Assembly (NCBI RefSeq): GCF_053078305.1 | Contig: NZ_CP166879.1 | Direction: 5' to 3' (one strand) | Length of the DNA stretch: 64,000 bases | Shown: positions 3,506-35,558 of the stretch, piece by piece | Layout of the letters: every line of letters starts with the position of its first letter | Position numbering within the stretch: position 1 is the first letter of the stretch | The notes under the pieces: model-generated | Database searches by the model: none | What the model saw: only the letters and a program-made list of their open reading frames with translations | What the model was told of the DNA's origin: nothing | Program-made: the position numbers and the translations under genes

Positions 3506-3681
3506 TTGTTTAAGGTATGCAAATGCATTACCTTACCCCCTTCAGGCGCGTGTCGTGATTTTCTAACCTGTATTTAACGGGCTTTAAAATCTGCGTGAAG
3601 CGCCTTTGTATTTTTCCCCTGGAAGCACTTCCTGAAATCCCGCAAAACCCGCCCTGAAAATTCCCGGCTTATGCTGCCGGA

Positions 3682-16582: not shown

Positions 16583-17130
16583 CCCTGACCCCGCATCAGC
16601 GCGCCCTGTTGCAGTTGCTGCCTGACGGGCTGGCATGGGATAAGCGGCCGTCATCCGTTCTTGCAGCTTTGTGCCTGGGCCTCAGTCATTCCACGGAGCG
16701 TGTTTCCTGGACCGGTAACCAGATGCTGGCAGAACGTTTTCCTGATTCATCCCGTCTGCTGCTGGAAGACTGGGAGCGTTATCTGGGGTTGCCGGAATGT
16801 GATATGACCGGCGCAACCATTCAGGAACGTCAGCGTTATGCCGGGAATAAATACCGGATGAAACCCTCTCTTAACCGTGAATTTTATATCCGGTTTGCGG
16901 CTGAGTTTGGTTATGAAATAGATATCCAGCCATCACCGGAATCACAATGGATCAGTATTGTGACAGTGAAGACGGCGGTGGGATACCGTCACATGAATGT
17001 ACTGGACGATATTCTTACACCACTGCGAATTTATGATGCAAGTGCGCTGGAGTGCATTTTAAACCGTTATAAGCCAGCCTGGCAGACGTTTTTATATCTG
17101 TACGAAAACAGTCATGAGGAGACGGAGTAA
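16573..17130 (+). CDS. baseplate/tail protein (Mu gp48-like)
   Basis: 185 aa, between the J-like gene and the tail fibre gene. Confidence 0.65.
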   Translation: MAVTLTPHQRALLQLLPDGLAWDKRPSSVLAALCLGLSHSTERVSWTGNQMLAERFPDSSRLLLEDWERYLGLPECDMTGATIQERQRYAGNKYRMKPSLNREFYIRFAAEFGYEIDIQPSPESQWISIVTVKTAVGYRHMNVLDDILTPLRIYDASALECILNRYKPAWQTFLYLYENSHEETE

Positions 17131-18017
17131 TGTATTTTGTCGACAACAATTCAGGTGTGACCGATATGCCACCACTGGCCCCCTCTCAGGGTACGCAGGT
17201 TAAATGGTTTACTGAAGGTGACGGACGCAAAGGGATCAGCCATATCGGTCAGGACTGGCTGAACATCGTGCAGGCAGAGCTGCTTGCCATTCTGACAGAA
17301 GGAAAGGTTCAGCCGGATAAGGCAAAACTGAACCAGCTGGTGACAGCCATTAAGGCAATCATTGCAGCAAACGCATACAGCCGGAAAAACAACCTTAAGG
17401 AGATTGCGGATGCAGGTGCAGAAGCACAGGCTGCTGCCCGCCGTCATCTGGGGCTGGGAGGATTATCAGGAAAAGACAGTCTGGCTGCTGCTGATGTGGG
17501 AGCACTGGAGAAATCCCGGAATTTTGACGATGTACCGGATAAACCGACGGCCCGCCTGAATCTTGATGTTTACAGTAAGGGAGAAGGCGATGAGCGTTAT
17601 CTGCGCAGGGACCAGAATGGCGCGGATATCCCGGACAAAGGAACCTTTATCGATAACCTCGGTTTACGGGAAACGGTAAATAAGGCTGCTGATGCCCTGC
17701 CATCGGGTGGAACCGCCGTGGCAGCGAATAAACTCGCCACCCCAGTAAATATTAATGGCGTTCCTTTCGACGGAACGCAGGATATCAATATTACATCGGG
17801 GATGACGCAGTCTGTGGCTGACTCACGTTATGTTCAAAGCATTCGAAGAGGTTCAAGGTCAACGATTGGAATGCAATATAATATTTTTGAAGTTCCTGAC
17901 GGATGCGTACTTACAGGGCTTGATGTCGCTGGTGATGGTAATGCAACGGTAACCGCATATTATCGCCCTGTTCAGTTTCTGATAAATGGTTCGTGGAAAA
18001 CAGCTTCCAGCGCATAA
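17130..18017 (+). CDS. S: tail fibre protein S (constant part plus currently expressed variable tip Sv)
   Basis: 295 aa. The frame crosses the left gix site at 17647-17672. The C-terminal tip is homologous to the silent cassette and to the lambdoid Stf tip (YYRPVQ...W[KR]T). Confidence 0.8.
   Translation: MYFVDNNSGVTDMPPLAPSQGTQVKWFTEGDGRKGISHIGQDWLNIVQAELLAILTEGKVQPDKAKLNQLVTAIKAIIAANAYSRKNNLKEIADAGAEAQAAARRHLGLGGLSGKDSLAAADVGALEKSRNFDDVPDKPTARLNLDVYSKGEGDERYLRRDQNGADIPDKGTFIDNLGLRETVNKAADALPSGGTAVAANKLATPVNINGVPFDGTQDINITSGMTQSVADSRYVQSIRRGSRSTIGMQYNIFEVPDGCVLTGLDVAGDGNATVTAYYRPVQFLINGSWKTASSA
17655..17788 (+). repeat. left arm of perfect 134-bp inverted repeat of the invertible segment
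   Basis: Exact reverse complement of 18906-19039, compared by eye base by base. Imperfect homology continues to about 17813. Confidence 0.9.
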
Positions 18018-19034
18018 AAGTGCAGTAGTTCAAAAAACAGATTATCTGAATAAATATATGATGATTTTGTCTTTTCAACAAAAACAAGGTGAAATAATGG
18101 AGCTTATTAACGTAAAACGATATTACCCGGAACACAAACCCTATGGTGAGGATGTTCAGTATTTCCAGAGTGAGGACGGAAGGGATTTTTATGAATCTCT
18201 CCCGCTTTTCACAAAGAAATACAAACTCTGTATTTCGCCTGTAACGGGTATTATCTGCTCTGTTGCTGAAGATGTCTCTGCTTTATATCCGGCAGGTTTT
18301 ACTGTTGTTGAAGTGGACGAACTGCCGGAAGGTGTGGATATTGACGGTAACTGGCAGTTTTCTGATGGCCTGATATCAAAGGTGCCGGTAAACTGGAAGA
18401 CGGTTGCTGAAAAGCGCCGCTCATCGCTGCTCCAGGAAGCCAACGAAACTGTGGATGACTGGAAAACGGAATTAAAACTGGACATGATTAGCGATGAAAA
18501 TAAATTACAGCTGACGCGCTGGATGGCGTATATCCGACAGCTTAAAGAAATGCACTTTAATGATATTGCCAGTGAGGGGCATTACCAGGCGATTCCCTGG
18601 CCGGAAAAACCGGAATAATTCAGAGGGTGCATTCAGCACCCTTTTCTGTGGTTTACACTGAACTTACCGTTCTCCAGGCATTATTAATATAAATCTGAAC
18701 CGGGCGATAATAGACCCCACCGATATTGTCCGCAGACCGGGAGCCGGTTTCCTGCACGTTAATACCGGAAAGCATACAACCGGAAGGTGCGCTGTAATTC
18801 CATGACATTTCATTGCCTCCGGGTGAATGATAGCTCTGTGCTCCAAGCTGAACATTCTGTACATACCGGCCATCTGCGGTTGACTGCGTCATTCCTGACG
18901 TGATGTTGATATCCTGCGTTCCGTCGAAAGGAACGCCATTAATATTTACTGGGGTGGCGAGTTTATTCGCTGCCACGGCGGTTCCACCCGATGGCAGGGC
19001 ATCAGCAGCCTTATTTACCGTTTCCCGTAAACCG
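17660..19034. mobile_element. Gin-invertible (G-segment-like) DNA segment, ~1.37 kb
   Basis: Bounded by inverted 26-bp gix-like sites: 17647-17672 TTATCGATAACCTCGGTTTACGGGAA and 19022-19047 TTCCCGTAAACCGAGGTTTCAGGGAT. A serine invertase gene lies adjacent. Confidence 0.8.
18097..18618 (+). CDS. U: tail fibre assembly chaperone (Mu U / lambda Tfa family)
   Basis: ATG at 18097 after AAGGTGA. 173 aa (Mu U is ~175 aa). The N-terminal motif SEDGRDFYESLPLF parallels SEDGQDWYECQSLF of the lambdoid Tfa at 37334. Confidence 0.75.
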   Translation: MELINVKRYYPEHKPYGEDVQYFQSEDGRDFYESLPLFTKKYKLCISPVTGIICSVAEDVSALYPAGFTVVEVDELPEGVDIDGNWQFSDGLISKVPVNWKTVAEKRRSSLLQEANETVDDWKTELKLDMISDENKLQLTRWMAYIRQLKEMHFNDIASEGHYQAIPWPEKPE

Positions 19035-19039
19035 AGGTT
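18653..19039 (-). CDS. silent alternative tail-fibre C-terminal cassette (Sv'), promoterless, expressed only after inversion
   Basis: Minus-strand frame is open from just inside gixR (TGA at 19042-19040 closes it outside) to the stop at 18653. Its first ~45 codons are identical to S residues encoded at 17655-17788. Confidence 0.75.
   Translation of the reverse strand, partial: NLGLRETVNKAADALPSGGTAVAANKLATPVNINGVPFDGTQDINITSGMTQSTADGRYVQNVQLGAQSYHSPGGNEMSWNYSAPSGCMLSGINVQETGSRSADNIGGVYYRPVQIYINNAWRTVSSV
18906..19039 (-). repeat. right arm of perfect 134-bp inverted repeat of the invertible segment
   Basis: Exact reverse complement of 17655-17788. Confidence 0.9.
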
Positions 19040-19101
19040 TCAGGGATGTCGTATATCTGCTTTAAAAGGCATTTTCACCTCTTTTTAAGGAAGGTAAATA
19101 C

Positions 19102-19662
19102 ATGCTGATTGGCTATATACGCGTATCAACAAATGACCAGAACACAGGTTTACAAAGAAATGCGCTGGAATGTGCAGGATGTAAGCTGATTTTTGAAGAT
19201 AAAATGAGCGGAAAAACAACGCAGCGGCCGGGACTGAAGCGGGCACTGAAGAAACTAAAACCCGGTGACACGCTGATGGTCTGGAAACTGGACAGGCTGG
19301 GGCGCAGTATGCGCCACCTTGTTGCGCTGACAGATGAATTACAGCAACAGGGGATAAATTTTCGTAGTCTTACTGACAACATTGATACGTCAACCCCCAT
19401 GGGGCGCTTCTTTTTTCACATAATGGGTGCGCTGGCAGAAATGGAGCGTGAATTGATTGTCGAACGGACACGGGCTGGTCTTGCAGCTGCCCGTGAAAGG
19501 GGACGAACCGGTGGCAGACCCCGTCGTCTCACGCAGGAACAATACGAGCAGGTCGGGCGTTTACTGGCCGGGGGTGTCAGCCGAAGACAGGTGGCACTTA
19601 TTTTTGATATCGGCCTTTCAACCCTTTATCGTTATTATCCTGCAAGCATTTCGGAAAAATAA
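19102..19662 (+). CDS. gin: serine DNA invertase (Gin/Hin/Pin/Cin family)
   Basis: 186 aa. MLIGYIRVSTNDQNT...VWKLDRLGRS...GINFRSLTD...MGRFFFH is near-collinear with Mu Gin as recalled. Sits beside gix sites. Confidence 0.92.
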   Translation: MLIGYIRVSTNDQNTGLQRNALECAGCKLIFEDKMSGKTTQRPGLKRALKKLKPGDTLMVWKLDRLGRSMRHLVALTDELQQQGINFRSLTDNIDTSTPMGRFFFHIMGALAEMERELIVERTRAGLAAARERGRTGGRPRRLTQEQYEQVGRLLAGGVSRRQVALIFDIGLSTLYRYYPASISEK

Positions 19663-19752
19663 GACGCTCCCTTTGTTGGGCCTTTACTGAATTAACGCAA
19701 AATGGCGTTTATCGGTCTGTGGATATGATAATTCTGTTTATTCAGGAACAGG

Positions 19753-21810
19753 ATGAATATTATGACGTCCAAATGGGTTCAACTATCATCAATGCCCGGA
19801 AACTTTACCGTTAAAGTTTCCGGTGGTACAGCGGCATTTCTTGAGGCTCCTTTTCCTCCGGCTGAAACGAAAGGAGGAATGACATTTGCTGACTGTCTCA
19901 TCAGTTTTAATACACAGGATTGCCTGTGGGTAAGGCCAGTATCCGGTGATCCGAACGTGGAAATTACCGGAGCGGGTATTGGTGCTGTCATTCCGTTAAG
20001 TGCTGATGTTGCCGGTACTACTGAACCGTCAGACTGGGATAATGCTGAAACACATACCCGTCCGGCAGGAAATGAAACGGCTTCCAGCTCCCCTTCCTGG
20101 TATTACGTGATTGTTATAGCCGGTCAGTCCAATGCTTCATCTTATGGTGAAGGGTTGCCCCTGCCGGATTCTTATGATCGTCCTGATCCACGTATTATGC
20201 AGCTGGCACGCAGGAATACACAAACCCCCGGAGGTATTCCCTGCAAATACAATGAAATCATTCCAGCAGATCACTGCCTTCATGATGTTCAGAATATGAG
20301 TCTGCTGAACCATCCAAAAGCAGACCTGAAAAAAGGGCAGTATGGTTGTGTGGGTCAGGGACTTCATATTGCGAAAAAAGTATTACCGGTGATTCCTGCT
20401 GATGCCGGGATTTTACTGGTTCCCTGTGCCCGTGGCGGCTCTGCTTTTACAACCGGCGCAGTTGGCTCATTCGATCCGGCAAGTGGTGCAGCCGAGGCGT
20501 CACTACGCTGGGGAGTGGATACCCCACTGTATCAGGATCTTGTCAGTCGAACGAAAGCGGCACTTGAGGCGAATCCAAAGAATGTGCTGTTATCTGTCGT
20601 ATGGATTCAGGGGGAAGGAGACCTTAAAGCGACCCCGGCCCAGCATGGTGCCCAGTTTACTGCGATGGTGAAAAAATTCCGTGCGGATCTTGGTGCTTTC
20701 TCCGGTCAGTGTATTGGTGGTTCATCAGACAGTGTGCCGTGGTTATGTGGTGACACAACCTATGACTGGAAAGAGAAGAACCCGGCGGCATATGAAACCA
20801 TTTATAGCGGATATAAAAACCGGGCTTCCGAGAACATTCACTTTGTTCCACTGATGCACGATGAGTTCGGTAATAAAACCGCGACCAACCTGCCGGAGCA
20901 CGACCCGGATATCGCTTCTGCCGGGTATTATGGTGCGGAATCACGGGGAGATGGCAACTGGACAACAGCATCCAGGGCAACCCATTTTAGCTCCTGGGCG
21001 CGCCGTTTTCTGGTCTCAGATCGTTTTGCATCAGCAATTCTTAAATATGCAGGTCTGACCTCTGCATTTATTGCCGGTGTGGCCCCTGATGGTGAAGCCC
21101 TGCCTCAGCCCGCGCCGGGTGGAAAACCGGAAGCTCCGACAGGTAGTCAGCCAGGAAGCAGTGAGTCCCCCCAGCCGACATCCCCGTCACTCCGTACGCT
21201 GCTTTCACTTAAAGCATCAGCAGGGGAAGCCCCGGCTCAGGGATGGAAAATTACAGATGGTACAATCCAGCTGACGGACGAAGGTAAAGCGCTGACCGTA
21301 TCCAAACAAAGCGGAAAAACCTGGTCACTTACCCATGCGACCAGTGCTGCCGGAGAGCTGTTGCAGCATGGTGGTCAGTTGACCTGTAAATTCCGTCTGT
21401 CAGGTGAAGTAAAAGAAGGCCAGTTTGCTCTGGGTATTTACCTCCACACCGATACGGTCCCGGAAGGTGTAACCATGAGTGGTACAGGCACACCGTTCCT
21501 GATGGCGTATTATCTCCAGACAACAGGCGGCCAGTTAAATCTGATGCACCATAAAACAGGGGGGAATACGAAACTGGGATCATTTGGAGCCTACAATAAC
21601 CAGTGGCATACACTTGTCCTGAAGTTTACGGCGGGAAGTGCCCAGGTAACGCCTGTGCTGGATGGCACTCCGGGCCAGGCATTCCAGATGGTGAAAGATG
21701 CACTTTCCCCTGCCAAAGATACGCTGACACTGACAGATGTCACCAAAGGGGCAACTTATGGCGTGTCTTTTGAGAGCGTTGTCCTTGAGGTTAATACCCC
21801 TGCGGCATAA
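19753..21810 (+). CDS. SGNH/SASA-type (sialate O-acetylesterase-like) carbohydrate esterase fused to a LamG/ConA-like C-terminal domain
   Basis: 685 aa. GQSN block at aa 124-127 (nt 20122-20133) and VWIQGEGD block are typical of the DUF303/SASA esterase family (NanS-like). Pro/Ser-rich linker. The ~190-aa beta-rich C-terminus has a lectin-like pattern. Confidence 0.5.
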   Translation: MNIMTSKWVQLSSMPGNFTVKVSGGTAAFLEAPFPPAETKGGMTFADCLISFNTQDCLWVRPVSGDPNVEITGAGIGAVIPLSADVAGTTEPSDWDNAETHTRPAGNETASSSPSWYYVIVIAGQSNASSYGEGLPLPDSYDRPDPRIMQLARRNTQTPGGIPCKYNEIIPADHCLHDVQNMSLLNHPKADLKKGQYGCVGQGLHIAKKVLPVIPADAGILLVPCARGGSAFTTGAVGSFDPASGAAEASLRWGVDTPLYQDLVSRTKAALEANPKNVLLSVVWIQGEGDLKATPAQHGAQFTAMVKKFRADLGAFSGQCIGGSSDSVPWLCGDTTYDWKEKNPAAYETIYSGYKNRASENIHFVPLMHDEFGNKTATNLPEHDPDIASAGYYGAESRGDGNWTTASRATHFSSWARRFLVSDRFASAILKYAGLTSAFIAGVAPDGEALPQPAPGGKPEAPTGSQPGSSESPQPTSPSLRTLLSLKASAGEAPAQGWKITDGTIQLTDEGKALTVSKQSGKTWSLTHATSAAGELLQHGGQLTCKFRLSGEVKEGQFALGIYLHTDTVPEGVTMSGTGTPFLMAYYLQTTGGQLNLMHHKTGGNTKLGSFGAYNNQWHTLVLKFTAGSAQVTPVLDGTPGQAFQMVKDALSPAKDTLTLTDVTKGATYGVSFESVVLEVNTPAA

Positions 21811-23190: not shown

Positions 23191-23215
23191 AATCGATCGT
23201 TTTTGTCGATCGATT
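23191..23215. promoter_or_regulatory. 9-bp inverted repeat AATCGATCG-N7-CGATCGATT, each arm carrying a GATC, just upstream of com
   Basis: Arms at 23191-23199 and 23207-23215; GATC at 23195 and 23208. In Mu, mom transcription is Dam/OxyR- and C-controlled. Confidence 0.4.
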
Positions 23216-23258
23216 GCATGAGAAAGGCATCAACAACAAAGCAGGAGGTTATGCGGCC

Positions 23259-23459
23259 ATGTATCGAAACATACGGTGCCGACACTGCAATAAGCTACTG
23301 GCACGGGCCAGTTTCAGTTATCTGGAAGTAAAATGTCCGCGCTGTAAAACCCTCAATCAAATCACATCTCCGAGCGCCACAGAGCACCCCACATACACAA
23401 GGAAATCCTGTCGTGGGGAACAGAAAGCAAGTCACATCCCGTATCATCAGCACGCCTGA
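23259..23459 (+). CDS. com: Com-like zinc-finger translational activator of mom
   Basis: 66 aa from the ATG after [14 protein letters not shown]...X17...CPRCKTLN parallels Mu Com CKNCNKLL...CPRCKRHI. Its 3' end overlaps the mom start, as in Mu. Confidence 0.8.
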
Positions 23460-24150
23460 ACTTATTCGCTATAACGACAATATCGTTGGTTATGGTTCCC
23501 GTGAGTTGCGGGTTGAGACAATAAGTTGCTGGCTGGCCAGACTGGTTATCGTCAATAAACATTACAGCCACCGTTTCGTAAATAACTCCTACCTTCATCT
23601 GGGCATATTTTCAGAACGGGAACTTGTTGGCGTAATGCAATGGGGTTACGCCCTTAACCCAAACAGTGGTGCACGCGTCGTAACGGGTACGCAGAACCGA
23701 GAATATATGGAGCTGAACCGGCTATGGATGCATGACTGTATGCCGAGAAACTCCGAATCAAGGGCAATCAGTTACGCGCTCAAGCTAATCAGGCAGCTTT
23801 ATCCGCAGGTACAGTGGGTTCAGTCGTTTGCAGATGAGCGTTGTGGCTGTCTTGGTGTCGTGTATCAGGCAAGCAATTTTGATTATGTAGGCAGCCATGA
23901 AACAATATTCTATGAACTTGATGGCGAGTGGTATCACGAGATTTGCAGGAATGCCATTAAACGAGGCGGACAACGAGGTGAACATCTGAGGGCTAATATC
24001 GACAGAGCCAGTGTGCATAAGTTCCGACAGTTTCGTTACATCCGGTTTCTGAACAAGAGGGCCAGAAAACGCCTCAACACAAAGCTATTCAAAGTCCAGC
24101 CTTACCCAAAACCACAAACAGTTAAAACTGGTTTGAAAGAGAGTGAATGA
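23413..24150 (+). CDS. mom: Mom-like DNA (adenine) modification protein
   Basis: 245 aa overlapping com. GNAT-like Mom-family pattern (KHYSHR...LGIF...LVGVMQWG...ELNRLW...[10 protein letters not shown]...SFADE...GVVYQASNF). Last gene before the phage end, as in Mu. Confidence 0.7.
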
Positions 24151-24189
24151 GCGCTTAAAAACTCATTCTAAAACTCAAAAGAAAAGCGC

Positions 24190-24259
24190 CGATTTAGTAT
24201 CAAATAAGTTGCGTATCGGCGTTTTTCAGCGGTATCAAATGAAATGCAAATCGGTATCA
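24190..24259 (+). mobile_element. Mu-like right end (attR) with three putative transposase-binding repeats and terminal CA
   Basis: GTATCA at 24197, 24232 and 24254; the last two are 22 bp apart. The element ends ...CGGTATCA at 24259. Read inward it begins TGATACCG. Confidence 0.6.
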
Positions 24260-24391
24260 AAAAAATCGCCGCGCTATATGCCGCTGACCACAGCATTTAA
24301 ACAGAATATTGAACGTATCCGGCGTGAACGCCTGCCAGAAGAACTGGCATATGCGCTGAAACAACAACTGAGGATTGCGATAAAACGATGA
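24260..24391 (+). pseudogene. Z: 3' fragment (last ~43 codons) of minor tail gene Z, truncated by the Mu-like insertion
   Basis: Translation [43 protein letters not shown], versus the recalled lambda gpZ C-terminus ...VKIPMAVPLTTAFKQNIERIRRERLPKELGYALQHQLRMVIKR. ATGA overlap with U. Confidence 0.75.
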
Positions 24392-24783
24392 AACATACTG
24401 ATATCCGTGCAGCCGTACTGGATGCACTGGAGAAGCATGACACCGGGGCGACGCTGTTTGATGGTCGCCCCGCTGTTTTTGAGGAGGCGGATTTTCCGGC
24501 GGTCGCGGTTTATCTGACGGATGCAGAGTATACCGGTGAAGAGCTGGATGCTGATACCTGGCGGGCCACACTGCATATTGAGGTGTTTTTACCGGCACAG
24601 GTACCGGATTCAGAGCTTGATCAGTGGATGGAAAGCCGGATTTACCCGGCGATGGCGGCGATCCCTGCACTGGCAGGCATGATTACCACGATGGTTACGC
24701 AGGGCTATGAGTATCGTCGTGATGACGATATGGCATTGTGGAGCTCTGCAGATCTGACTTATTCCATTACATACGAGATGTGA
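24388..24783 (+). CDS. U: tail terminator protein U
   Basis: 131 aa, lambda gpU-like, in the correct position. Confidence 0.9.
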
Positions 24784-24790
24784 GGATGAT

Positions 24791-25540
24791 ATGGCAACAC
24801 CAAATCCCCTGGCGCCGGTAAAAGGTTCCGGCACCACGCTCTGGGTTTACACCGGTAAGGGCGATGCTTATGCAAACCCGCTGTCAGATGATGAGTGGAC
24901 GCGTCTGGCAAAAATAAAGGATCTGACCCCCGGCGAGATGACGGCGGAATCCTACGACGATAACTATCTGGATGATGAGGATGCTGACTGGGTATCCACC
25001 GGGCAGGGGCAGAAATCTGCCGGTGACACCAGTTTTACGCTGGCCTGGAAGCCCGGCGAGAAAGGGCAGCGTGATTTGATTGCCTGGTTTGACAGCAGTG
25101 AGACCCGGGCCTACAAAATCCGCTTCCCGAACGGTACGGTGGATGTGTTCCGTGGCTGGGTGAGCGCCATTGGTAAAGCGGTGACTGCCAAAGAAGTGAT
25201 TACCCGTACGGTAAAAATCACCAATATTGGTCGTCCGTCGCTGGCGGAGGATCGGGGAGAAATCACACCGGTCACCGGTATTACCGTGACGCCACTAACG
25301 GGGAATGTGGCAAAAGGTCAGAGCACCACCCTGACTGTGGCCGTTCAGCCGGAAGGCGCAACGGATAAAACATTCCGCGCAACGTCGGCAAATCAGAATT
25401 TCGCCACCATTACCGTGAAAGGGAACACGATCACCGTGAAAGGTGTTGCGGCAGGTAAAGCGCAGATCCCTGTTGTCACCGGCAACGGTGAGTTTGCGGC
25501 GGTGGCGGAGATCACCGTTACGGATGGCGCTGCGGGCTGA
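24791..25540 (+). CDS. V: major tail protein V (with C-terminal Ig-like domain)
   Basis: 249 aa. ...[12 protein letters not shown]...[18 protein letters not shown]...[14 protein letters not shown] is near-identical in pattern to lambda gpV. Confidence 0.92.
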
Positions 25541-25556
25541 GGGGAGGAGATCAAGC

Positions 25557-25979
25557 ATGTTCCTGAAAACAGAACAATTTGAATATAACGGTGTGTCCGT
25601 CACGCTGTCGGAACTGTCCGCGCTGCAGCGGTTTGATTATATAAAGTTTGTTTCAGACGCAGCACAACAGGAGACAACGGAGCATGATGCCGTGCACATT
25701 AACCAGCGATATCTGGAAACGGCATCCCTGCTTGTGGCGATGTCGCTATGGCATTCCCATTCCCTCAAAGGCACTCTGGCCTCTCCGGAGACAGAGATGC
25801 AGCAGATCCGCCGTGAAGTGATGCTGGGATGGCCTGCTGATGCACTGAATCAGGCAACGAACCGGGTGCTTTATCTTTCAGGTATGCTGGATAACCGGCA
25901 CGATGCCGATCCTGAACAAACCGGGAAAGCAGAAGCGACTGAGCCGGTAACATCAAAAAAGCATTCGAAGGCGAGCTGA
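25557..25979 (+). CDS. G: tail assembly chaperone G
   Basis: MFLKTEQFEYNGVSVTLSELSALQR... matches lambda gpG MFLKTESFEHNGVTVTLSELSALQR. The track ORF has a spurious 38-codon upstream extension. Confidence 0.9.
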   Translation: MFLKTEQFEYNGVSVTLSELSALQRFDYIKFVSDAAQQETTEHDAVHINQRYLETASLLVAMSLWHSHSLKGTLASPETEMQQIRREVMLGWPADALNQATNRVLYLSGMLDNRHDADPEQTGKAEATEPVTSKKHSKAS

Positions 25980-26419
25980 ACTTTGTCCTGAAACTGGCGC
26001 GTGAGATGGGGAGAGCCGACTGGCGCGCCATGCTTGCCGGGATGACATCCACCGAATATGCCGACTGGCGACGTTTTTACTGCACGCATTATTTTCAGGA
26101 TACCCAACTGGACGCTCATTTTTCCGGGCTGATGTACGCCGTACTCAGCCTGTTTTTTGGCGATCCGGATATGCATCCGGCGGATTTCAGTCTGCTTGCT
26201 CCAGCGTGTGAGGAAGAGCAGACGGAGATGCCGGACGAGGAAGAAATGCTGATGCAGAAAGCGACAGGAGTTGCCGGAGGCGTCCGGTTCGGAGGGGACG
26301 GGGGACGCGATATTTCACCTTCTGCGGATGTGGTGGATGTCAGCGAGGATGATGTTGCATTAATGATGGCTTCAGCGGGGATTTCCGGAGGTGTGAGATA
26401 TGTCCCAGCCAGCGGGTGA
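25557..26419 (+). CDS. T: tail assembly chaperone G-T fusion made by -1 programmed frameshift
   Basis: The T frame (26006..26419 in the track) is -1 relative to G and open back past the slip site. Same arrangement as lambda G/GT. Confidence 0.8.
25923..25929 (+). promoter_or_regulatory. G GGA AAG slippery heptamer for the G/G-T -1 frameshift
   Basis: GGGAAAG lies near the 3' end of G, identical to the lambda slip sequence. Confidence 0.8.
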
Positions 26420-29012
26420 TCTGGTTATTGATTTGAGTCTGGATGCGGCCCGGTTTGATGAACAGATGGCCCGGGTACGCCGTCATTTTTCCAGTCTGGA
26501 GGCGGATGCCAGAAAAACCGCCAGTACTGTTGAACAGGGGCTGAGCCGACAGGCGCTGGCTGCACAAAAAGCCGGGATATCAGTCGGACAGTATAAGGCT
26601 GCCATGCGCACACTGCCCGCACAGTTCACGGATATTGTCACTCAGCTTGCCGGTGGTCAGAATCCCTTCCTTATCATGCTGCAGCAGGGGGGGCAGATCA
26701 GCGATTCATTCGGTGGACCGCTCAGCCTGCTTACCCTGCTGAAGGAGGAACTTCTCGGGATCAGGGATGCCTCTGAATCATCAGAGGATTCGCTGTCAGA
26801 TACGGCAAATGCTCTGGCTGAAAATGCCCGGAATGCCGGTGAACTGGGACGATTTATGTCGGTGGCCCGTGTGGCGGCAGGTGGCGGGGTTGCCGTACTG
26901 GCCGCGCTTGCTGCTGCCGCCTGGCAGGCAGAGCAGGCTGACCGGGCCTTATTGCGTTCACTGACCCTGACCGGAGGGGCGGCTGCCACCACAACGGCCG
27001 AATTGTGGAAAATGGCCGGGGTGATCAGCGATGAAGCCGGTGGTGGTATCAGACAGGCGGCAGAAAATCTGGCCCGTCTGGCAGAAAGCGGGAAATATAC
27101 CGCCGGGCAGCTACGGATCATGGGGGAAACCTCTCAGAGATGGCTGCAGACGGTGGGGGACGATGCCGGGAAGGTGGAAAAAGCCTTTGAAGGGATTGCA
27201 GCAGATCCGGTGAAGGCGCTGGCCTCCCTGAATCAGCAGTATAACTTCCTGAGCGTTTCCCAGTTACGCCATATTGATGAGCTTGAGCGCACGAAAGGTA
27301 AACAGGCTGCGGTGACGGAGGCGATGTCCCTGTTTGCGGATGTTATGAATGCACGTCTGGAGCAACTTGATAAAGCGGCCACGCCGGTGGAAAAAATCTG
27401 GGACGATGTTAAAACCTGGACTTCTGACGCATGGGCATGGATAGGTGATCATACACTGGGGGCACTCAGTCTGATCACTGACGTGGTGGCAGGAACCGTT
27501 GAACAGGTGAAGCTGCTGCTTGTGCAGGGGGATCTGGCGCTGGCTGAATTTATTCAGTCAGCCTGGGAAACGACAAAGAATGTGCCCGGCGTTGGTGCGT
27601 TGTTTGGTGAACTGGCAGAAGAGAACCGCGTATTTATTGAGAAAACAAAACGCGATGAACTGGCGCTGAGAAAATCCATTGCGGAACGGGATGCGCGTAT
27701 ACGCCAGGGGGAAATGGGGTACATCAACCGTTCGCGTGCAACAGGCGTCAGCAAAGGTCCGGGGCAGCAGGAAGCCGTCAGCCGTCTGGCTGAAGAGCTG
27801 ACAGGTAAAAAGCATACATCACCGAAAACGCGCTCTGCCGGGGAGAGGGAAGAGGAGCAGGCAAGAGAGGCTCTGCTTGCCCTTGAAGCTGAACTCAGGA
27901 CGCTGGAAAAACACAGCGGTGCGAATGAGAAAATCAGCCGGCAACGCCGTGATTTATGGAAGGCGGAAAGTCAGTATGCGGTCCTGAAAGAGGCTGCCAC
28001 GAAACGACAGTTATCCGGGCAGGAAAAATCCCTGCTGGCCCATGAGAAAGAGACGCTGGAGTACAAACGCCAGCTGGCTGAGCTGGGCGACAAGGTTGAA
28101 TACCAGAAACGCCTGAATGAGCTGGCACAGCAGGCGGCACGGTTTGAAGAGCAGCAGAGCGCGAAGCAGGCCGCCATCAGCGCAAAAGCCCGTGGTCTCA
28201 CTGACCGTCAGGCGCAGCGGGAGTCTGAAGCGCAGCGTCTTCGTGACGTGTATGGCGATAATCCGCAGGCGCTGGCACAGGTCACCGGGGCACTGAAACA
28301 GACATGGGCGGATGAAGACATGCTGCGCGGTGACTGGCTGGCCGGGCTGAAGTCCGGCTGGGGCGAGTGGGCAGAAAGTGCGACGGACAGTTTTTCGCAG
28401 GTTAAAAGTGCTGCCACGCAGACCTTTGACGGTATTGCGCAGAATATGGCGGCGATGCTGACCGGTGCAGAGGCAGACTGGCGGGGATTCACCCGTTCGG
28501 TGCTGTCCATGATGACAGAAATCCTGCTTAAACAGGCCATGGTGGGAATTGTCGGGCGTATCGGCAGTGCCATTGGTGGTGCTTTCGGTGGTGGTGCATC
28601 TGCTTCCTCGGGGACGGCCATTGAGGCTGCGGCGGCGAACTTCCATTTCGCGACCGGAGGATTTACGGGGACGGGCGGCAAATATGAGCCTGCGGGGATA
28701 GTTCACCGCGGGGAGTTTGTTTTCACGAAAGAGGCAACCAGCCGGATAGGTGTGGGGAATCTTTACCGTCTGATGCGCGGGTATGCGGAAGGTGGTTATG
28801 TGGGTGCTGCCGGAAGTCCGGCGCAGATGCGGCGGGCGGAAGGTATTAATTTTAATCAGAACAATCACGTGGTGATTCAGAACGACGGTATCAACGGACA
28901 GGCGGGGCCGCAGCTGATGAAGGCGGTGTATGACATGGCCCGTAAGGGGGCGCAGGATGAACTCCGGCTGCAGTTACGTGATGGCGGTATGTTATCAGGG
29001 AGCGGGCGATGA
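26400..29012 (+). CDS. H: tail tape measure protein H
   Basis: 870 aa. N-terminus (GDLVIDLSLDAARFDEQMARVRRHFS) and C-terminus (KYEPAGIVHRGEFVFTKEATSRIGVGNLYRLMRGYA) match lambda gpH. Confidence 0.92.
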   Translation: MSQPAGDLVIDLSLDAARFDEQMARVRRHFSSLEADARKTASTVEQGLSRQALAAQKAGISVGQYKAAMRTLPAQFTDIVTQLAGGQNPFLIMLQQGGQISDSFGGPLSLLTLLKEELLGIRDASESSEDSLSDTANALAENARNAGELGRFMSVARVAAGGGVAVLAALAAAAWQAEQADRALLRSLTLTGGAAATTTAELWKMAGVISDEAGGGIRQAAENLARLAESGKYTAGQLRIMGETSQRWLQTVGDDAGKVEKAFEGIAADPVKALASLNQQYNFLSVSQLRHIDELERTKGKQAAVTEAMSLFADVMNARLEQLDKAATPVEKIWDDVKTWTSDAWAWIGDHTLGALSLITDVVAGTVEQVKLLLVQGDLALAEFIQSAWETTKNVPGVGALFGELAEENRVFIEKTKRDELALRKSIAERDARIRQGEMGYINRSRATGVSKGPGQQEAVSRLAEELTGKKHTSPKTRSAGEREEEQAREALLALEAELRTLEKHSGANEKISRQRRDLWKAESQYAVLKEAATKRQLSGQEKSLLAHEKETLEYKRQLAELGDKVEYQKRLNELAQQAARFEEQQSAKQAAISAKARGLTDRQAQRESEAQRLRDVYGDNPQALAQVTGALKQTWADEDMLRGDWLAGLKSGWGEWAESATDSFSQVKSAATQTFDGIAQNMAAMLTGAEADWRGFTRSVLSMMTEILLKQAMVGIVGRIGSAIGGAFGGGASASSGTAIEAAAANFHFATGGFTGTGGKYEPAGIVHRGEFVFTKEATSRIGVGNLYRLMRGYAEGGYVGAAGSPAQMRRAEGINFNQNNHVVIQNDGINGQAGPQLMKAVYDMARKGAQDELRLQLRDGGMLSGSGR

Positions 29013-29338
29013 AAACCTTTCGCTGGAAAGTGAAGCCGGATATGGAGGTGAACTCGCAGCCGTCGGTGCGTGAAGTGCGTTTTGGTGACGGGTACTCACA
29101 GCGTATGGCGGCAGGGCTGAATGCTGACCTGAAAACATACCGGGTGATGCTTTCCGTGACCCGGGAGGAGGCCCGGCATCTGGAAGCGTTCCTGGCAGAG
29201 CACGGGGGCTGGAAGGCATTTTTGTGGAAGCCACCCTATGCATACCGGCAGATAAAGGTGACCTGTGCCGGGTGGTCTGCGCGGGTCGGGATGCTGCGCG
29301 TTGAGTTCAGCGCGGAGTTTAAGCAGGTGGTGAACTGA
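29009..29338 (+). CDS. M: minor tail protein M
   Basis: 109 aa in the lambda gpM position, ATGA-coupled. Confidence 0.9.
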   Translation: MKTFRWKVKPDMEVNSQPSVREVRFGDGYSQRMAAGLNADLKTYRVMLSVTREEARHLEAFLAEHGGWKAFLWKPPYAYRQIKVTCAGWSARVGMLRVEFSAEFKQVVN

Positions 29339-30036
29339 TGCAGGATATTCACGAAGAAACTCTTAACGAGTCGGTTAAGTCAGAGCAGTCACCGCGGGTG
29401 GTGCTCTGGGAAATCGACCTGACGGCGCAGGGCGGTGAGCGGTATTTTTTCTGCAATGAGCTGAATGAAAAAGGGGAGCCGGTGACCTGGCAGGGGCGTG
29501 AATATCAGGCGTACCCGATTGAGGGCAGCGGCTTTGAGATGAACGGAAAGGGCAGCAGTGCCCGCCCGTCGCTGACAGTGTCCAATCTTTTTGGGCTGGT
29601 CACCGGGATGGCGGAGGATTTGCAGAGCCTGGTGGGTGCCACGGTGGTCCGCCGCCGGGTGTATGCGCGTTTTCTGGATGCGGTGAATTTTGTGGCAGGC
29701 AATCCGGAGGCAGACCCTGAGCAGGAGCTGATGGACCGGTGGGTGGTGGAGCAGATGTCAGCGCTGACGGCCATGACGGCCTCGTTTGTGCTGGCGACAC
29801 CGACGGAGACGGACGGTGCGCTGTTTCCCGGTCGCATCATGCTGGCGAACACCTGTATGTGGGATTACCGGGGCGATGAATGCGGGTATAACGGTCCGGC
29901 AGTGGCGGATGAGTTCGACAACCCCACCACGGATATCCGGAAGGACAGATGCAGTAAATGCATGCGCGGGTGTGAGATGCGCGGCATGGTGGCTAATTTC
30001 GGCGGTTTCCTTTCCATTAATAAACTTTCGCAGTAA
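29338..30036 (+). CDS. L: minor tail protein L
   Basis: 232 aa, lambda gpL-like, including the C-terminal Cys cluster. Confidence 0.9.
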   Translation: MQDIHEETLNESVKSEQSPRVVLWEIDLTAQGGERYFFCNELNEKGEPVTWQGREYQAYPIEGSGFEMNGKGSSARPSLTVSNLFGLVTGMAEDLQSLVGATVVRRRVYARFLDAVNFVAGNPEADPEQELMDRWVVEQMSALTAMTASFVLATPTETDGALFPGRIMLANTCMWDYRGDECGYNGPAVADEFDNPTTDIRKDRCSKCMRGCEMRGMVANFGGFLSINKLSQ

Positions 30037-30046
30037 ATCCCGTTTT

Positions 30047-30790
30047 ATGACACAGACTGAATCAGCGATTCTGGCGCATGCCCGGCGGTGTGCGCCAGCG
30101 GAGTCGTGCGGCTTCGTGATAAGCACCCCGGAGGGCGAACGGTACCAGCCCTGCGTGAATATCTCCGCAGAGCCGGAGGCGTATTTTCGTATTGCACCGG
30201 AAGACTGGCTGCGGGCAGATATGCAGGGGGAGATTGTGGCGCTGGTCCACAGTCATCCCGGTGGTCTGCCCTGGCTGAGCGAGGCGGACCGGCGGCTGCA
30301 GATAAAGAGTGCCCTGCCCTGGTGGCTGGTCTGCCGGGGCGACATTCACCGGTTCCGCTGTGTGCCGCACCTGACCGGACGGCGCTTTGAACACGGTGTG
30401 ACGGACTGTTACAGCCTGTTCCGGGATGCATACCATCTGGCGGGGATAACGCTGCCGGATTTTGTGCGTGAGGATGACTGGTGGCGCAACGGCCAGAACC
30501 TGTACCTGGACAACCTGGCGGACAACGGCTTTTACCGGGTGTCTCCGTCCTGTGCACAGGCGGGCGATATCCTGCTGTGCTGCTTTGGTTCATCGGTGCC
30601 GAATCATGCCGCCATTTACTGTGGCAACGGTGAACTGCTTCACCATATACCTGAACAACTGAGTAAACGGGAGAGGTATTCTGAAAAATGGCAACGACGA
30701 ACGCATTCTGTCTGGCGTCACCGCCACTGGTCCGTATCTGCCTTCACGGGGATTTACAACGATTTGGTCGCCGCATCAGCCTGTATGTGA
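30047..30790 (+). CDS. K: tail tip assembly protein K (NlpC/P60 + JAB-like)
   Basis: MTQTESAILAHARRCAPAESCGFV... is identical in pattern to lambda gpK. The track ORF start at 29786 is an upstream artefact overlapping L. Confidence 0.9.
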   Translation: MTQTESAILAHARRCAPAESCGFVISTPEGERYQPCVNISAEPEAYFRIAPEDWLRADMQGEIVALVHSHPGGLPWLSEADRRLQIKSALPWWLVCRGDIHRFRCVPHLTGRRFEHGVTDCYSLFRDAYHLAGITLPDFVREDDWWRNGQNLYLDNLADNGFYRVSPSCAQAGDILLCCFGSSVPNHAAIYCGNGELLHHIPEQLSKRERYSEKWQRRTHSVWRHRHWSVSAFTGIYNDLVAASACM

Positions 30791-31368
30791 ACACGGCAGC
30801 GGAGGCCATACGTGCCCTGTCACTGCAGGTGCCGGGATTCCGCGGTCAGATGAACGAAGGCTGGTACCGGATACGTATTGCCGGTGAGGATACCGCGCCG
30901 GAGGCGGTGTATGCCCGTCTTCACGAACAACTGGGTGAGGGAGCGGTCATCCACATTGTACCGCGACTGGCCGGAGCCGGGGGAAATGGTGTTTTTCAGG
31001 TGGTGCTGGGGGCAGCAGCCATCGTGGGCTCTTTCTTCACAGCCGGTGCAACGATGGCGTTGTGGGGCGCAGCCCTGAGTGCCGGAGGGCTGACTGCCAC
31101 CACGATGCTGTTCTCACTGGGTGCCAGCATGATACTGGGTGGTGTGGCTCAGATGCTGGCCCCGAAGGCAAAGACGCCGGAGTACAAAAGTACGGATAAC
31201 GGTAAACAGAACACGTATTTTTCGTCACTGGACAACATGATTGCCCAGGGTAACCCGATGCCGGTACCTTACGGTGAAATGCTGGTTGGTTCACGACGGA
31301 TATCCCAGGACATTAGCACCCGTGATGAGGGCGGAGACGGGAAAGTGGTGGTTATCGGACGGGGATAA
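30688..31368 (+). CDS. I: tail tip assembly protein I
   Basis: 226 aa. ...ICLHGDLQRFGRRISL...DNGKQNTYFSSLDNM... matches lambda gpI. Overlaps the K 3' end as in lambda. Confidence 0.9.
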   Translation: MATTNAFCLASPPLVRICLHGDLQRFGRRISLYVNTAAEAIRALSLQVPGFRGQMNEGWYRIRIAGEDTAPEAVYARLHEQLGEGAVIHIVPRLAGAGGNGVFQVVLGAAAIVGSFFTAGATMALWGAALSAGGLTATTMLFSLGASMILGGVAQMLAPKAKTPEYKSTDNGKQNTYFSSLDNMIAQGNPMPVPYGEMLVGSRRISQDISTRDEGGDGKVVVIGRG

Positions 31369-31370
31369 AA

Positions 31371-31406
31371 ATAAAAAAATCCCGCAGAGTTAGTGGAGCT
31401 GCGGGA
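31371..31406 (-). terminator. minus-strand rho-independent terminator in the I-J spacer
   Basis: Minus strand reads UCCCGCAG-11 nt loop-CUGCGGGA, followed by UUUUUUUAUUUUU. Confidence 0.65.
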
Positions 31407-31535
31407 AATAACGATGAAGATTAATGTTATGGAGTTATTTTTTTGGGCAGAAAAACAGTAACGCAGCGTCATTATAGCGGCTACAGGCAATTGCCGGAAA
31501 TGTGAAGAATTTCAGAAATTTTATTCCGTCATGAC

Positions 31536-31566
31536 ACAGGCACCCTCCGGGGTGCCTGTTGTTTTT
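31536..31566 (+). terminator. plus-strand rho-independent terminator immediately upstream of J
   Basis: 10-bp stem ACAGGCACCC/GGGTGCCTGT, loop TCCG, then TGTTTTT. Confidence 0.7.
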
Positions 31567-31609
31567 GGGCATAAACAGATTCAGACATCAGACAGGAGAG
31601 GGGGACAGA

Positions 31610-35077: not shown

Positions 35078-35275
35078 ACATCGCGCCCCGGGATTGCCGG
35101 AAGGAGACAAAAACCGTACAGTATGCGCGGGTGCCTTTGGCTGATGGCCGGAGGGAACACCTGAAGGCCGGAAAGACGAAGGCCCCGGACAAACATTCAT
35201 GTTTAACCCGAGGCCTGACTTTCGATCTTCAGCAAATTGAAGGTTAGCGCCTCTCCGTAAAAGGAGCAAGCGTTT

Positions 35276-35545: not shown

Positions 35546-35558
35546 ATGGGGGAAATCC

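What the first reader, a model, noticed from the sequence alone, without database searches (positions are those of the whole stretch)
17647..19047. Minimal Gin-invertible segment: 134-bp perfect inverted repeats, two fibre tips but only one chaperone gene
Inverted 26-bp sites TTATCGATAACCTCGGTTTACGGGAA (17647-17672) and TTCCCGTAAACCGAGGTTTCAGGGAT (19022-19047) match the gix/hix/cix family (Mu gixL as recalled: TTATCCAAAACCTCGGTTTACAGGAA). They form the outer edges of a perfect 134-bp inverted repeat (17655-17788 / 18906-19039). Mu's repeat is 34 bp.

The segment is only ~1.37 kb, against ~3 kb in Mu. It holds Sv, one U-type chaperone (18097-18618) and the silent Sv' cassette (18653-19039, closed by TGA just outside gixR). 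Only 34 bp separate U and Sv'.

Mu and P1 carry one chaperone per orientation (U and U'). Here, after inversion, Sc-Sv' would be expressed but U would point against late transcription. Three explanations are possible. The Sv' tip may not need a dedicated chaperone. U' may have been deleted, leaving one orientation non-productive. Or the Tfa of the surrounding lambdoid prophage (37334-38005, same family) may act in trans.
Basis: partly seen in the sequence, partly recalled or inferred. Interest (0 to 1): 0.55.

Follow-up and report, generated by a model that had tools for sequence, protein, structure and literature searches.

The report
Compact phage host-range switch, one chaperone
This is a working, miniature version of phage Mu's invertible tail-fibre switch, found in a Mu-like (Sp18-type) prophage of E. 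coli, and its one assembly-chaperone gene appears to serve both alternative fibre tips as a self-contained unit, not as one dedicated gene per orientation.

Summary
Two gix-type 26-bp sites (17647-17672, 19022-19047) bound a ~1.38-kb segment. It holds fibre tip Sv, one Mu-U-type tfa (18097-18618), a hairpin, and the reversed tip Sv'. A Gin/Pin-like invertase gene follows (19102-19662).

The element is the O157 Sakai Sp18-type Mu-like prophage switch. It occurs in more than 200 complete E. coli genomes. Both orientations are found, including within O157:H7 and within one isolate, and polymorphisms place the crossover inside the 26-bp site.

The single tfa is the conserved design in every invertase-bearing relative examined, not a recent loss.
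- Sv' is under strong purifying selection (dN/dS 0.04-0.12).
- All tip types share the Mu S distal-domain fold.
- The Tfa fibre-binding N-domain is conserved across all tip combinations.
- Invertase-less derivatives locked with tfa convergent to the fibre gene sit in apparently intact prophages at different insertion sites and keep tfa under selection.
- tfa has a 51-120-nt untranslated spacer, whereas dedicated tfa genes in two-chaperone segments abut their tip gene.
- Analogous one-tfa P2-like segments carry a P2 late-promoter motif in that spacer.
- Published Sakai array data show the tfa and its co-oriented tip cassette regulated together while antisense to the fibre gene.

Most likely this is one shared chaperone expressed independently of orientation. 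The promoter position is unproven.

The parts
17130..18017 (+). Tail-fibre gene in its current state: Sc fused to tip Sv (type A), 295 aa. It is a shortened homologue of Mu S.
   Evidence: The ORF is listed. Residues 1-198 align to Mu S 1-191, and residues 230-295 align to Mu S 436-504 (PDB 5YVQ_A, E 1.6e-50). The gene follows Mu gp45-48-type baseplate genes (Phage_Mu_Gp48).
17647..17672 (.). gixL-type 26-bp recombination site. The crossover dinucleotide TC is at 17659-17660.
   Evidence: The site matches Mu gixL at 23 of 26 positions. In relatives, position 12 stays with the flank while position 26 moves with the segment.
17655..17788 (.). Left arm of the perfect 134-nt inverted repeat. It encodes the shared 45 residues NLGLRETV...DGTQDIN.
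17789..18017 (+). Unique part of tip A (Sv). It has the distal-domain fold of Mu S.
18018..18096 (+). AT-rich 79-nt untranslated spacer upstream of tfa. It is the candidate site of an autonomous promoter and leader (CAAAA at 18031-18035, TATGAT at 18057-18062, SD AAGGTG before the ATG).
   Evidence: The spacer gives an ungapped 31/47 match to the DUF6645 leader (z 5.2; 2 of 2000 shuffles reach the score). It also carries one of the CAAAA-N21/22-TATNNT motif hits. Dedicated tfa genes in two-chaperone segments have gaps of only -4 to +20 nt. No sigma-70 site of 9/12 or better was found.
18097..18618 (+). The single tfa gene, 173 aa, a homologue of Mu U.
   Evidence: Pfam Caudo_TAP, E 1.2e-18. 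PDB 5YVQ_B (Mu U), E 1.9e-15. The N-domain is 74-79% conserved across all tip combinations.
18622..18644 (.). GC-rich 9-bp-stem hairpin with A-run and T-run flanks, lying between tfa and Sv'. It is probably a bidirectional terminator.
   Evidence: The hairpin is present in every variant. In the D'-tip variants it is replaced by a non-homologous hairpin. Mu has one in the gap between U and U'.
18653..19039 (-). Promoterless alternative tip cassette Sv' (type A'), 128 codons. After inversion it fuses in frame to Sc and gives a 303-aa fibre.
   Evidence: dN/dS is 0.04-0.12 across relatives. It is homologous to 9CUY_c (E 2e-16) and to the Mu S tip.
19022..19047 (.). gixR-type 26-bp site. The crossover dinucleotide GA is at 19034-19035. 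The outer half-site contains the TGA that closes the Sv' frame.
19102..19662 (+). Gin/Pin-family serine DNA invertase, 186 aa.
   Evidence: Pfam Resolvase plus HTH_7. It is 69% identical to Gin and 71% to PinE, and the RVST catalytic serine motif is conserved.
19663..19752 (+). Leader and promoter region of the next gene (DUF6645/SASA esterase, 19753-21810). It resembles the tfa spacer.

Best explanation
The locus is the host-range switch of an Sp18-type Mu-like prophage of E. coli.

A Gin/Pin-family serine invertase (19102-19662) exchanges strands at the central dinucleotide of two inverted gix-type sites and flips a ~1.38-kb segment. This fuses the constant fibre part Sc to either tip A (the current state) or tip A'. 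Both tips are short paralogues of the Mu S distal domain. That is the domain the N-domain of Mu Tfa binds.

Unlike Mu, P1 and e14, the segment carries only one tfa. It lies between the two tips, preceded by a 79-nt untranslated spacer and followed by a bidirectional terminator hairpin.

Proposed mechanism. The one Tfa is a generalist that recognises the C-terminal structure shared by all tips of this family. It is made in both orientations because it is transcribed independently of the late fibre operon.
- In the current orientation it can also be read through from the fibre gene.
- In the flipped orientation the late transcript stops at the hairpin after Sv', and tfa is read from its own side.

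Shown here:
- the anatomy of the locus;
- the homologies;
- that the inversion happens in nature and occurs at the gix core;
- that the one-tfa design is conserved;
- that both tips and tfa are under purifying selection;
- that locked derivatives with tfa convergent to the fibre gene are viable.

Inferred:
- that Tfa binds both tips;
- that a promoter exists on the tfa side. Its position is unresolved. It could be in the spacer, or upstream of the co-oriented tip cassette.
For: Inversion is real.
- The window orientation is full-length in 23 complete E. coli genomes, and the simulated flipped form in 181.
- Both states occur within O157:H7.
- L025 and L026, two contigs of one IMG genome, carry the identical 1385-bp segment in opposite orientations.
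- Between L001 and L030, position 12 of the site stays with the flank while position 26 moves with the segment.
- In L035 both cores have co-varied from TC to TT.

The design is conserved. All invertase-bearing relatives have tip, one tfa, then a reversed tip. This holds across 3 tfa/spacer types and 5 tip types, each seen in both orientations.

Sv' is functional.
- dN/dS is 0.04-0.12, with dS up to saturation.
- For the D' tip, dN/dS is 0.07-0.16.

Evidence for a shared chaperone.
- All tips, together with Mu S and S', align as one domain with invariant G, G, G, R, Q and W.
- The fibre aligns to Mu S and the Tfa aligns to Mu U.
- The Tfa N-domain is 74-79% identical across all tip pairings, against 50% for the C-domain.
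- L031 pairs the window's type of tfa with a different co-oriented tip.
- The Mu Tfa N-domain is the part that binds the distal fibre (PMC9608196).

Evidence that expression does not depend on orientation.
- Invertase-less derivatives are frozen as fibre-> <-tfa. They arose by deletion running from the co-oriented tip through pin.
- They lie in apparently intact Mu-like prophages inserted in bcsA and in a lateral flgL gene.
- They keep tfa at dN/dS 0.10-0.23.
- Their tfa-proximal 95 nt evolve 2-6 times more slowly than 4-fold degenerate sites.
- Spacer length separates single tfa genes (51-120 nt here; 72 and 95 nt in two P2-like families) from dedicated ones (-4 to +20 nt, including Mu and e14).
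- The P2-like spacers carry TGT-N12-ACA, the P2 late-promoter consensus (PMC3931495), 45 nt upstream of a -10-like hexamer.
- The window's spacer resembles the leader of the next transcription unit.
- In Sakai, Sp18 is in the flipped state. ECs4990 (tfa) and ECs4991 (co-oriented silent tip) rise together and are the only Sp18 genes in that table of a 70-mer oligo array study (PMC2241611).
Against: - No promoter has been mapped.
- The sigma-70 scan finds nothing of 9/12 or better in the spacer.
- The three spacer types share no motif.
- The Mu C-site geometry (TTAT-N6-ATAA, about 34 nt from the -10) does not fit the window's TTAT-N4-ATAA.
- One of the three spacer-located CAAAA motif hits ends only 6 nt before the start codon of gene I.
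- The Sakai array result points to a start upstream of the co-oriented tip, not in the spacer. It comes from uninduced lysogens and is not a late-infection measurement.
- Purifying selection seen in the locked lineages may be partly inherited through recombination with invertase-bearing relatives, because the alleles are mosaic.
- Binding of Tfa to either tip was not tested.
- Mu itself keeps both U and U' even though its two tips are of the same class. A shared C-terminus therefore does not by itself make one chaperone sufficient.
Confidence: 0.6

Rival explanations
1. tfa is expressed in the flipped state, but from a promoter outside the spacer. The transcript would start upstream of the co-oriented tip cassette, in the inverted-repeat arm or at the pin-proximal border, and run through the silent tip into tfa.
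For: - In Sakai (flipped state), ECs4991 (silent tip) and ECs4990 (tfa) change by the same amount, 2.12 and 2.13, and fall in the same cluster. The fibre and invertase genes are not listed.
- A 10-codon mini-ORF with a strong SD reads leftward from the pin side into gixR (19072-19040; sequence). This hints at leftward transcripts there.
Against: - The locked invertase-less derivatives have lost the right repeat, most of the co-oriented tip and pin, yet they keep tfa under selection.
- No minus-strand promoter-like site is found near 19048-19140 or in the repeat arm.
- This reading does not explain why single tfa genes always have long spacers.
Confidence: 0.15
2. The Sv' (A') tip folds without Tfa. 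The tfa would then be a dedicated partner of the co-oriented tip only and would be silent after inversion.
For: - tfa is always co-oriented with tips A, B or C and never with A' or D'.
- In some relatives the tfa type changes together with the co-oriented tip while A' stays constant (L002, L003).
Against: - The locked derivatives can make only A' or D' fibres, yet they retain an intact tfa at dN/dS 0.10-0.23 together with a conserved upstream region.
- The Tfa fibre-binding N-domain is conserved across all pairings.
- A' has the same distal-domain fold as Mu S, which needs U.
- L031 breaks the covariation between tip and tfa.
Confidence: 0.1
3. After inversion, a Tfa from another resident prophage assembles the Sv' fibre in trans. 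A candidate is the lambdoid 37334-38005 product.
For: - The lambdoid protein shares an N-terminal domain with this Tfa (32% identity over 118 aa, E 7e-15).
- By my own recollection, cross-complementation between Tfa proteins of different phages is known (lambda Tfa for T4 gp38).
Against: - Its C-terminal part is DUF4376, not Caudo_TAP.
- The Mu-like element is found at many different chromosomal sites and in hosts without this lambdoid prophage.
- Dependence on a helper would not explain why tfa is retained in the locked lineages.
Confidence: 0.05
4. The flipped state is simply non-productive. An ancestral U' was lost and Sv' is a remnant.
For: There is only one tfa, and it is antisense after inversion. 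Mu-type ancestors carry U'.
Against: - A' and D' are intact in nearly all loci, with dN/dS 0.04-0.16.
- The flipped state predominates in sequenced genomes.
- Locked flipped derivatives have spread to different insertion sites.
- No trace of a second tfa exists in the 34-nt gap.
Confidence: 0.04

Closest known systems
Phage Mu G segment with Gin (S-U / U'-S')
   Same: - The baseplate-fibre-invertase-com/mom gene order is the same.
- The fibre N-terminus and the tip domain are homologous to Mu S, and the tfa is homologous to U.
- The gix sites match at 23 of 26 positions, and the invertase is 69% identical to Gin.
- A hairpin lies at the centre of the segment.
   Different: - The segment is 1.38 kb against 3.06 kb.
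- The fibre lacks about 245 central residues.
- There is one tfa instead of two.
- The tfa is separated from its tip by 79 nt, against 2 nt in Mu.
- The perfect repeat is 134 bp here against 34 bp in Mu.
Invertible host-specificity region of prophage Sp18 (E. coli O157:H7 Sakai) and its homologue Phi804-3
   Same: It is the same element family: ECs_4989 fibre, ECs_4990 tfa, ECs_4991 tip cassette, ECs_4992 invertase. Tips, tfa and invertase are 98-100% identical to the window's. [quoted passage not shown]
   Different: - The window's Sc is only about 72% identical at the amino-acid level.
- Sakai is in the flipped state.
- The window's repeat has been homogenised to 134 bp.
- I found no published dissection of the one-chaperone layout.
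e14 P segment with PinE (stfP-tfaP / tfaE-stfE)
   Same: - A YmfQ/gp48-type gene lies upstream.
- The fibres are short.
- The invertase is of Pin type (71% identity).
- The inversion is active in culture (PMC4272514, PMC12529663).
   Different: - The e14 segment is 1797 bp and carries two tfa genes, each abutting its tip gene (gaps of 1 and -1 nt).
- Its two tips belong to different C-terminal classes.
- Its pin-side ORF stays open into the segment. Here that frame is closed by TGA.
These may be the P2-like loci reported in EPEC (PMC4272514).
   Same: - A single tfa lies between alternative tips of one C-terminal class.
- A 72-95-nt spacer precedes the tfa.
- Both orientations are seen.
- A Pin-type invertase lies adjacent.
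   Different: - The phage backbone is different (P2 gpI/gpH).
- The tip and tfa families are different.
- The spacer carries the P2 TGT-N12-ACA late-promoter motif. No equivalent motif could be recognised in the Mu-like spacers.
Carotovoricin Er tail-fibre inversion (Nguyen et al. 2001, cited in PMC4272514; details from my own recollection)
   Same: It is a minimal invertase-driven exchange of fibre C-termini.
   Different: As I recall, its segment is about 790 bp with no chaperone gene inside it. It belongs to a tailocin, not a transposable phage. It was not examined here.

Membership tests
Gin/Hin/Cin/Pin DNA-inversion systems | A serine recombinase with a resolvase catalytic domain and a C-terminal HTH, encoded next to the segment | tested here: met
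   Pfam Resolvase E 5e-51 and HTH_7 E 1.7e-14. The protein is 69% identical to Gin and 71% to PinE, and the RVST serine motif is conserved.
Gin/Hin/Cin/Pin DNA-inversion systems | Two 26-bp sites in inverted orientation, each made of two 12-bp half-sites around an identical 2-bp core | tested here: met
   The sites are at 17647-17672 and 19022-19047, with cores TC and GA. In L035 the cores have co-varied to TT in both sites.
Gin/Hin/Cin/Pin DNA-inversion systems | Inversion actually occurs, with exchange at the core | tested here: met
   Both orientations occur in near-identical elements. Flanking polymorphisms map the exchange between positions 12 and 26 of the site. This is comparative evidence. 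No reads from this strain were available.
Gin/Hin/Cin/Pin DNA-inversion systems | A Fis-dependent recombinational enhancer in cis, in the 5' part of the invertase gene | tested here: inconclusive
   The first 120 nt of pin are 75-90% identical to gin and pinE. Fis sites were not identified.
Mu G-type host-range switch | A constant fibre N-terminus outside the segment and alternative C-termini inside it, homologous to Mu S | tested here: met
Mu G-type host-range switch | One dedicated chaperone per orientation (U and U'), each abutting its tip gene | tested here: not met
   There is one tfa only. The other side has a 34-nt gap, and 79 nt separate Sv from tfa.
Tail fibre assembly proteins (Caudo_TAP / Mu U) | Sequence membership, with the two-domain layout (N-domain binds the fibre, C-domain is conserved) | tested here: met
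   PF02413 scores 68 bits against a cut-off of 22.1. 5YVQ_B matches at E 1.9e-15 over residues 17-147.
Tail fibre assembly proteins (Caudo_TAP / Mu U) | Binds and assembles the cognate fibre tip; here, both tips | not testable with these tools
   Support is indirect only: conservation of the N-domain and of the tips' C-termini.
e14 P segment | Two convergent tfa genes between two tips of different classes | tested here: not met

The most novel reading that the evidence does not exclude
Invertible fibre switches may come in two designs.
- Where each tip has its own chaperone, the tfa is fused into the tip's operon, with a gap of 20 nt or less.
- Where the alternative tips share a C-terminal class, a single generalist tfa travels inside the invertible DNA as an autonomous cassette. 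It has its own late promoter and a bidirectional terminator, so it is expressed whichever way the segment points.

The window would be the Mu-like example of a rule that also holds in P2-like phages, where the spacer carries an Ogr-type TGT-N12-ACA element.
Probability: 0.5. Interest if true: 0.55.

Novelty: new variant of a known kind. Interest (0 to 1): 0.42.

Why it matters
The switch itself is ordinary phage biology, and the element is already present in hundreds of sequenced E. coli genomes, including O157 Sakai. What seems not to have been pointed out is the layout: one chaperone for two or more tips, carried as a separate unit inside the invertible DNA.

If confirmed, this would give three things.
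- A simple rule for reading fibre-switch loci. Spacer length and the tips' C-terminal class would predict whether a chaperone is shared or dedicated.
- A natural example of a Tfa that accepts several tips. That is useful for engineering phage or tailocin host range without having to match a chaperone to each tip.
- A compact ~1.4-kb two-state module for synthetic biology.

It also corrects annotation. PGAP marks Sv' as an 'incomplete' pseudogene and sometimes misses the full fibre ORF.

Tried and rejected
- Sigma-70 consensus scan of 17000-19800. No site of 9/12 or better in the tfa spacer or on the minus strand near pin.
- Mu C-activator site. Pmom carries TTAT-N6-ATAA about 34 nt from its -10. 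The window has TTAT-N4-ATAA at 18042, but no -10 at the matching distance. Rejected.
- Search for a motif shared by the three tfa-spacer types. None found at 10-14-mers with 1-3 mismatches.
- Genome-contig scan with Sc. It returned only distant hits to the 25-residue collar-like stretch in unrelated phyla and no enterobacterial relatives. Not used.
- Attempt to show that the EPEC E2348/69 'Mu prophage' inversion (PMC4272514) is this family. The strain was not among the listed hits. Left open.
- Rfam and tRNA scans of the region found nothing.
- Reading the invertase-less loci as the ancestral state. Rejected, because they keep a decayed 3' remnant of a co-oriented tip (..TAYYR..) and sequence from the pin 3' flank. 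They are therefore deletion derivatives.
- The CAAAA-N21/22-TATNNT motif as a late-promoter signature. It is enriched (5 hits against 1.0 expected), but it was partly derived from the sequences it then 'finds'. I treat it as a hint only.
Full report
OBSERVATION

- Inverted repeat. The arms 17655-17788 and 18906-19039 are a perfect 134-nt inverted repeat. It continues at 91% identity to 182 nt.
- Recombination sites. Its outer ends lie in two 26-bp sites. The left one (TTATCGATAACCTCGGTTTACGGGAA) matches Mu gixL, read from the Mu genome, at 23 of 26 positions. The cores are TC (17659-17660) and GA (19034-19035), so they are identical in inverted orientation.
- ORFs. A 295-aa fibre (17130-18017), a 173-aa tfa (18097-18618), the reversed 128-codon cassette Sv' (18653-19039) and a 186-aa invertase (19102-19662).
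- A simulated flip gives an in-frame 303-aa fibre.
- The 34 nt between tfa and Sv' form a 9-bp GC hairpin flanked by A and T runs.
- The host is E. coli.

WHAT THE PARTS ARE

- The genes upstream are Mu gp45-48-type baseplate genes.
- Fibre residues 1-198 align to Mu S 1-191, and residues 230-295 align to Mu S 436-504 (5YVQ_A, E 1.6e-50). The fibre is therefore Mu S without its central ~245 residues.
- The tfa is a homologue of Mu U (5YVQ_B, E 1.9e-15; Pfam Caudo_TAP).
- The invertase is 69% identical to Gin and 71% to PinE.
- com and mom follow at 23214-24150, and lambda-type tail genes come directly after. The Mu-like prophage has therefore inserted into a lambdoid prophage.
- The element is the Sp18 type. 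In O157 Sakai the same genes are ECs_4989 to ECs_4992, in the flipped state. The FRIK804 copy lies inside Phi804-3, the published Sp18 homologue (PMC7430833). Sp18's 'invertible host-specificity region' was mentioned in 2009 without dissection (PMC2669165).

THE INVERSION IS ACTIVE

- Among complete E. coli genomes, 23 hold the window orientation full-length and 181 hold the simulated flipped form. O157:H7 strains appear on both lists.
- Two contigs of one IMG genome (L025, L026) match the window at 99.9% and carry the identical 1385-bp segment in opposite orientations.
- In O157-type elements a G/C polymorphism at position 12 of the site stays with the flank, while an A/T polymorphism at position 26 moves with the segment. 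Exchange therefore happened inside the 26-bp site, as expected for Gin-type recombination. One relative (L035) has changed both cores together from TC to TT.
- The 134-bp perfect repeat is specific to this strain. Relatives have 3-26 bp of perfect identity.

ONE CHAPERONE IS THE DESIGN, NOT AN ACCIDENT

- Every invertase-bearing relative recovered (IMG/VR loci L025-L068 and three annotated E. coli genomes) has the order Sc, repeat, tip, one tfa, reversed tip, repeat, invertase.
- There are three tips co-oriented with tfa (A, B, C) and two convergent tips (A', D'). There are three kinds of tfa spacer. Each combination is seen in both orientations.
- The convergent tips are not decaying. They are intact in nearly all loci. 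dN/dS is 0.04-0.12 for A' and 0.07-0.16 for D', with synonymous divergence up to saturation.

WHY ONE TFA COULD SERVE BOTH TIPS

- All five tips align with the Mu S and S' distal domains as one family, with invariant G, G, G, R, Q and W positions. A' also matches a solved short tail fibre (9CUY_c, E 2e-16).
- In Mu the Tfa N-domain binds this distal part of the fibre (PMC9608196).
- Here the Tfa N-domain is 74-79% identical across all tip pairings, while the C-domain is only 50% identical. One relative (L031) combines the window's tfa type with a different co-oriented tip.
- Mu's own U and U' show the same pattern, N-domain 72% and C-domain 38%. This means a shared tip class permits one chaperone but does not force it.

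IS TFA MADE WHEN IT POINTS THE WRONG WAY?

Four lines of evidence say yes.

1. Seven IMG loci and seven complete genomes carry an invertase-less derivative frozen as fibre-> <-tfa. It arose by deletion from the co-oriented tip through pin. A decayed ..TAYYR.. remnant and sequence from the pin 3' flank remain.
   - These sit in apparently complete Mu-like prophages inserted in bcsA in one strain and in a lateral-flagellar flgL in another. They carry A' or D' tips.
   - Their tfa is intact, with dN/dS 0.10-0.23.
   - The 95 nt upstream of tfa evolve 2 to 6 times more slowly than 4-fold degenerate sites.
2. A census of other Pin-linked segments separates two classes.
   - In two-tfa segments, Mu and e14 included, each tfa abuts its tip (-4 to +20 nt).
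   - Every truly single tfa has a long spacer: 51-120 nt in this family, and 95 and 72 nt in two P2-like families, one of them a three-tip shufflon.
   - Single-tfa segments always have tips of one C-terminal class.
3. The P2-like spacers contain TGT-N12-ACA, the consensus of P2 Ogr-dependent late promoters (PMC3931495).
   - It lies 45 nt upstream of a -10-like hexamer and resembles the element just after pin.
   - In the window, 47 nt of the tfa spacer align without gaps to the leader of the next unit, DUF6645, at 31/47 (z 5.2; 2 of 2000 shuffles).
4. In a 70-mer oligo array study of Sakai, where tfa is antisense to the fibre gene, ECs4990 (tfa) and ECs4991 (the co-oriented silent tip) rise together (2.13 and 2.12).
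   - They are the only Sp18 genes in that table (PMC2241611).
   - This shows tfa-sense transcription in the flipped state. It suggests a start upstream of the tip cassette, not in the spacer.

WHAT REMAINS UNPROVEN

- No promoter has been mapped.
- The sigma-70 scan is negative.
- The three spacer types share no motif.
- The Mu C-site geometry does not fit.
- Selection in the locked lineages may be partly imported by recombination.
- Tfa-tip binding is inferred only.

VERDICT

This is a real, active, compact Mu-type host-range switch of a known prophage family. Its interest lies in the conserved single, uncoupled chaperone. The best reading is a generalist Tfa expressed independently of orientation (confidence 0.6).

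I rate it a new variant of a known kind, of moderate interest.

Noticed in passing
window 1-24150 against 24143-38005: The Mu-like prophage ends with com (23214-23459) and mom (23413-24150). It directly abuts lambda-type tail genes: tube 24791, tape measure 26400, J 31559, Stf 35559. The transposable phage has therefore inserted into the morphogenesis region of a lambdoid prophage. Two Stx-phage records are annotated the same way ('region of the inserted Bacteriophage Mu-like phage').
   Followed up: partly
window 19753-21810: A 685-aa protein with a SASA carbohydrate-esterase domain and a DUF6645 domain is encoded just after the invertase. Its alleles differ widely between otherwise near-identical elements, at 51-62% or 99-100% identity. 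This is what one would expect of a second host-surface-directed tail protein. It probably has its own promoter.
   Followed up: partly
window 19072-19040 (minus strand): A 10-codon mini-ORF (MPFKADIRHP) with a strong SD (GAGGTG) reads from the pin side into gixR. It is closed by the TGA that also shuts the Sv' frame. In e14 the corresponding frame stays open and yields StfE/StfE2 (PMC12529663). Its conservation and function were not examined.
   Followed up: no
L002 4028-4062; L038 3366-3440: Downstream of B-type tips, and in the invertase-less loci, there are short decayed remnants of an A-type tip 3' end (..NGSWRTAGSA*, ..TAYYRLII..). This shows that tip cassettes are replaced by recombination with junctions at the extreme 3' end.
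   Followed up: partly
L128-L132, L181, L163, L170 (IMG/VR P2-like prophages): These P2-like prophages carry Pin-flanked segments of 1.3-1.9 kb with a single tfa. One (L163) has three alternative tips and one tfa. A TGT-N12-ACA element sits in the 72-95-nt spacer upstream of tfa.
   Followed up: partly
L134, L153, L158, L173 (about 5400-5690 in L134 and L158): In some P2-like segments the second tip is followed by a short ORF of about 64-94 aa (MRLFNP...), where a second tfa would be expected. My Tfa profile does not detect it. It may be a different small chaperone.
   Followed up: no
L001 4132-5019 and relatives: PGAP does not annotate the intact 295-aa fibre ORF in O157 strain ECP19-198; only a 204-bp 'tail fiber protein' is called. 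It also labels the alternative tip cassette an incomplete pseudogene. Invertible cassettes are therefore systematically mis-annotated.
   Followed up: no
window 3506-3681 and L104 5352-5431: The 176-nt spacer before the protease/scaffold gene contains a long palindrome (AAGGTATGCAAATGCATTACCTT). In a related prophage, PGAP calls a 'tRNA-OTHER' in the spacer between the head-morphogenesis and virion-morphogenesis genes (L104 5352-5431). ARAGORN finds no tRNA in the window.
   Followed up: partly
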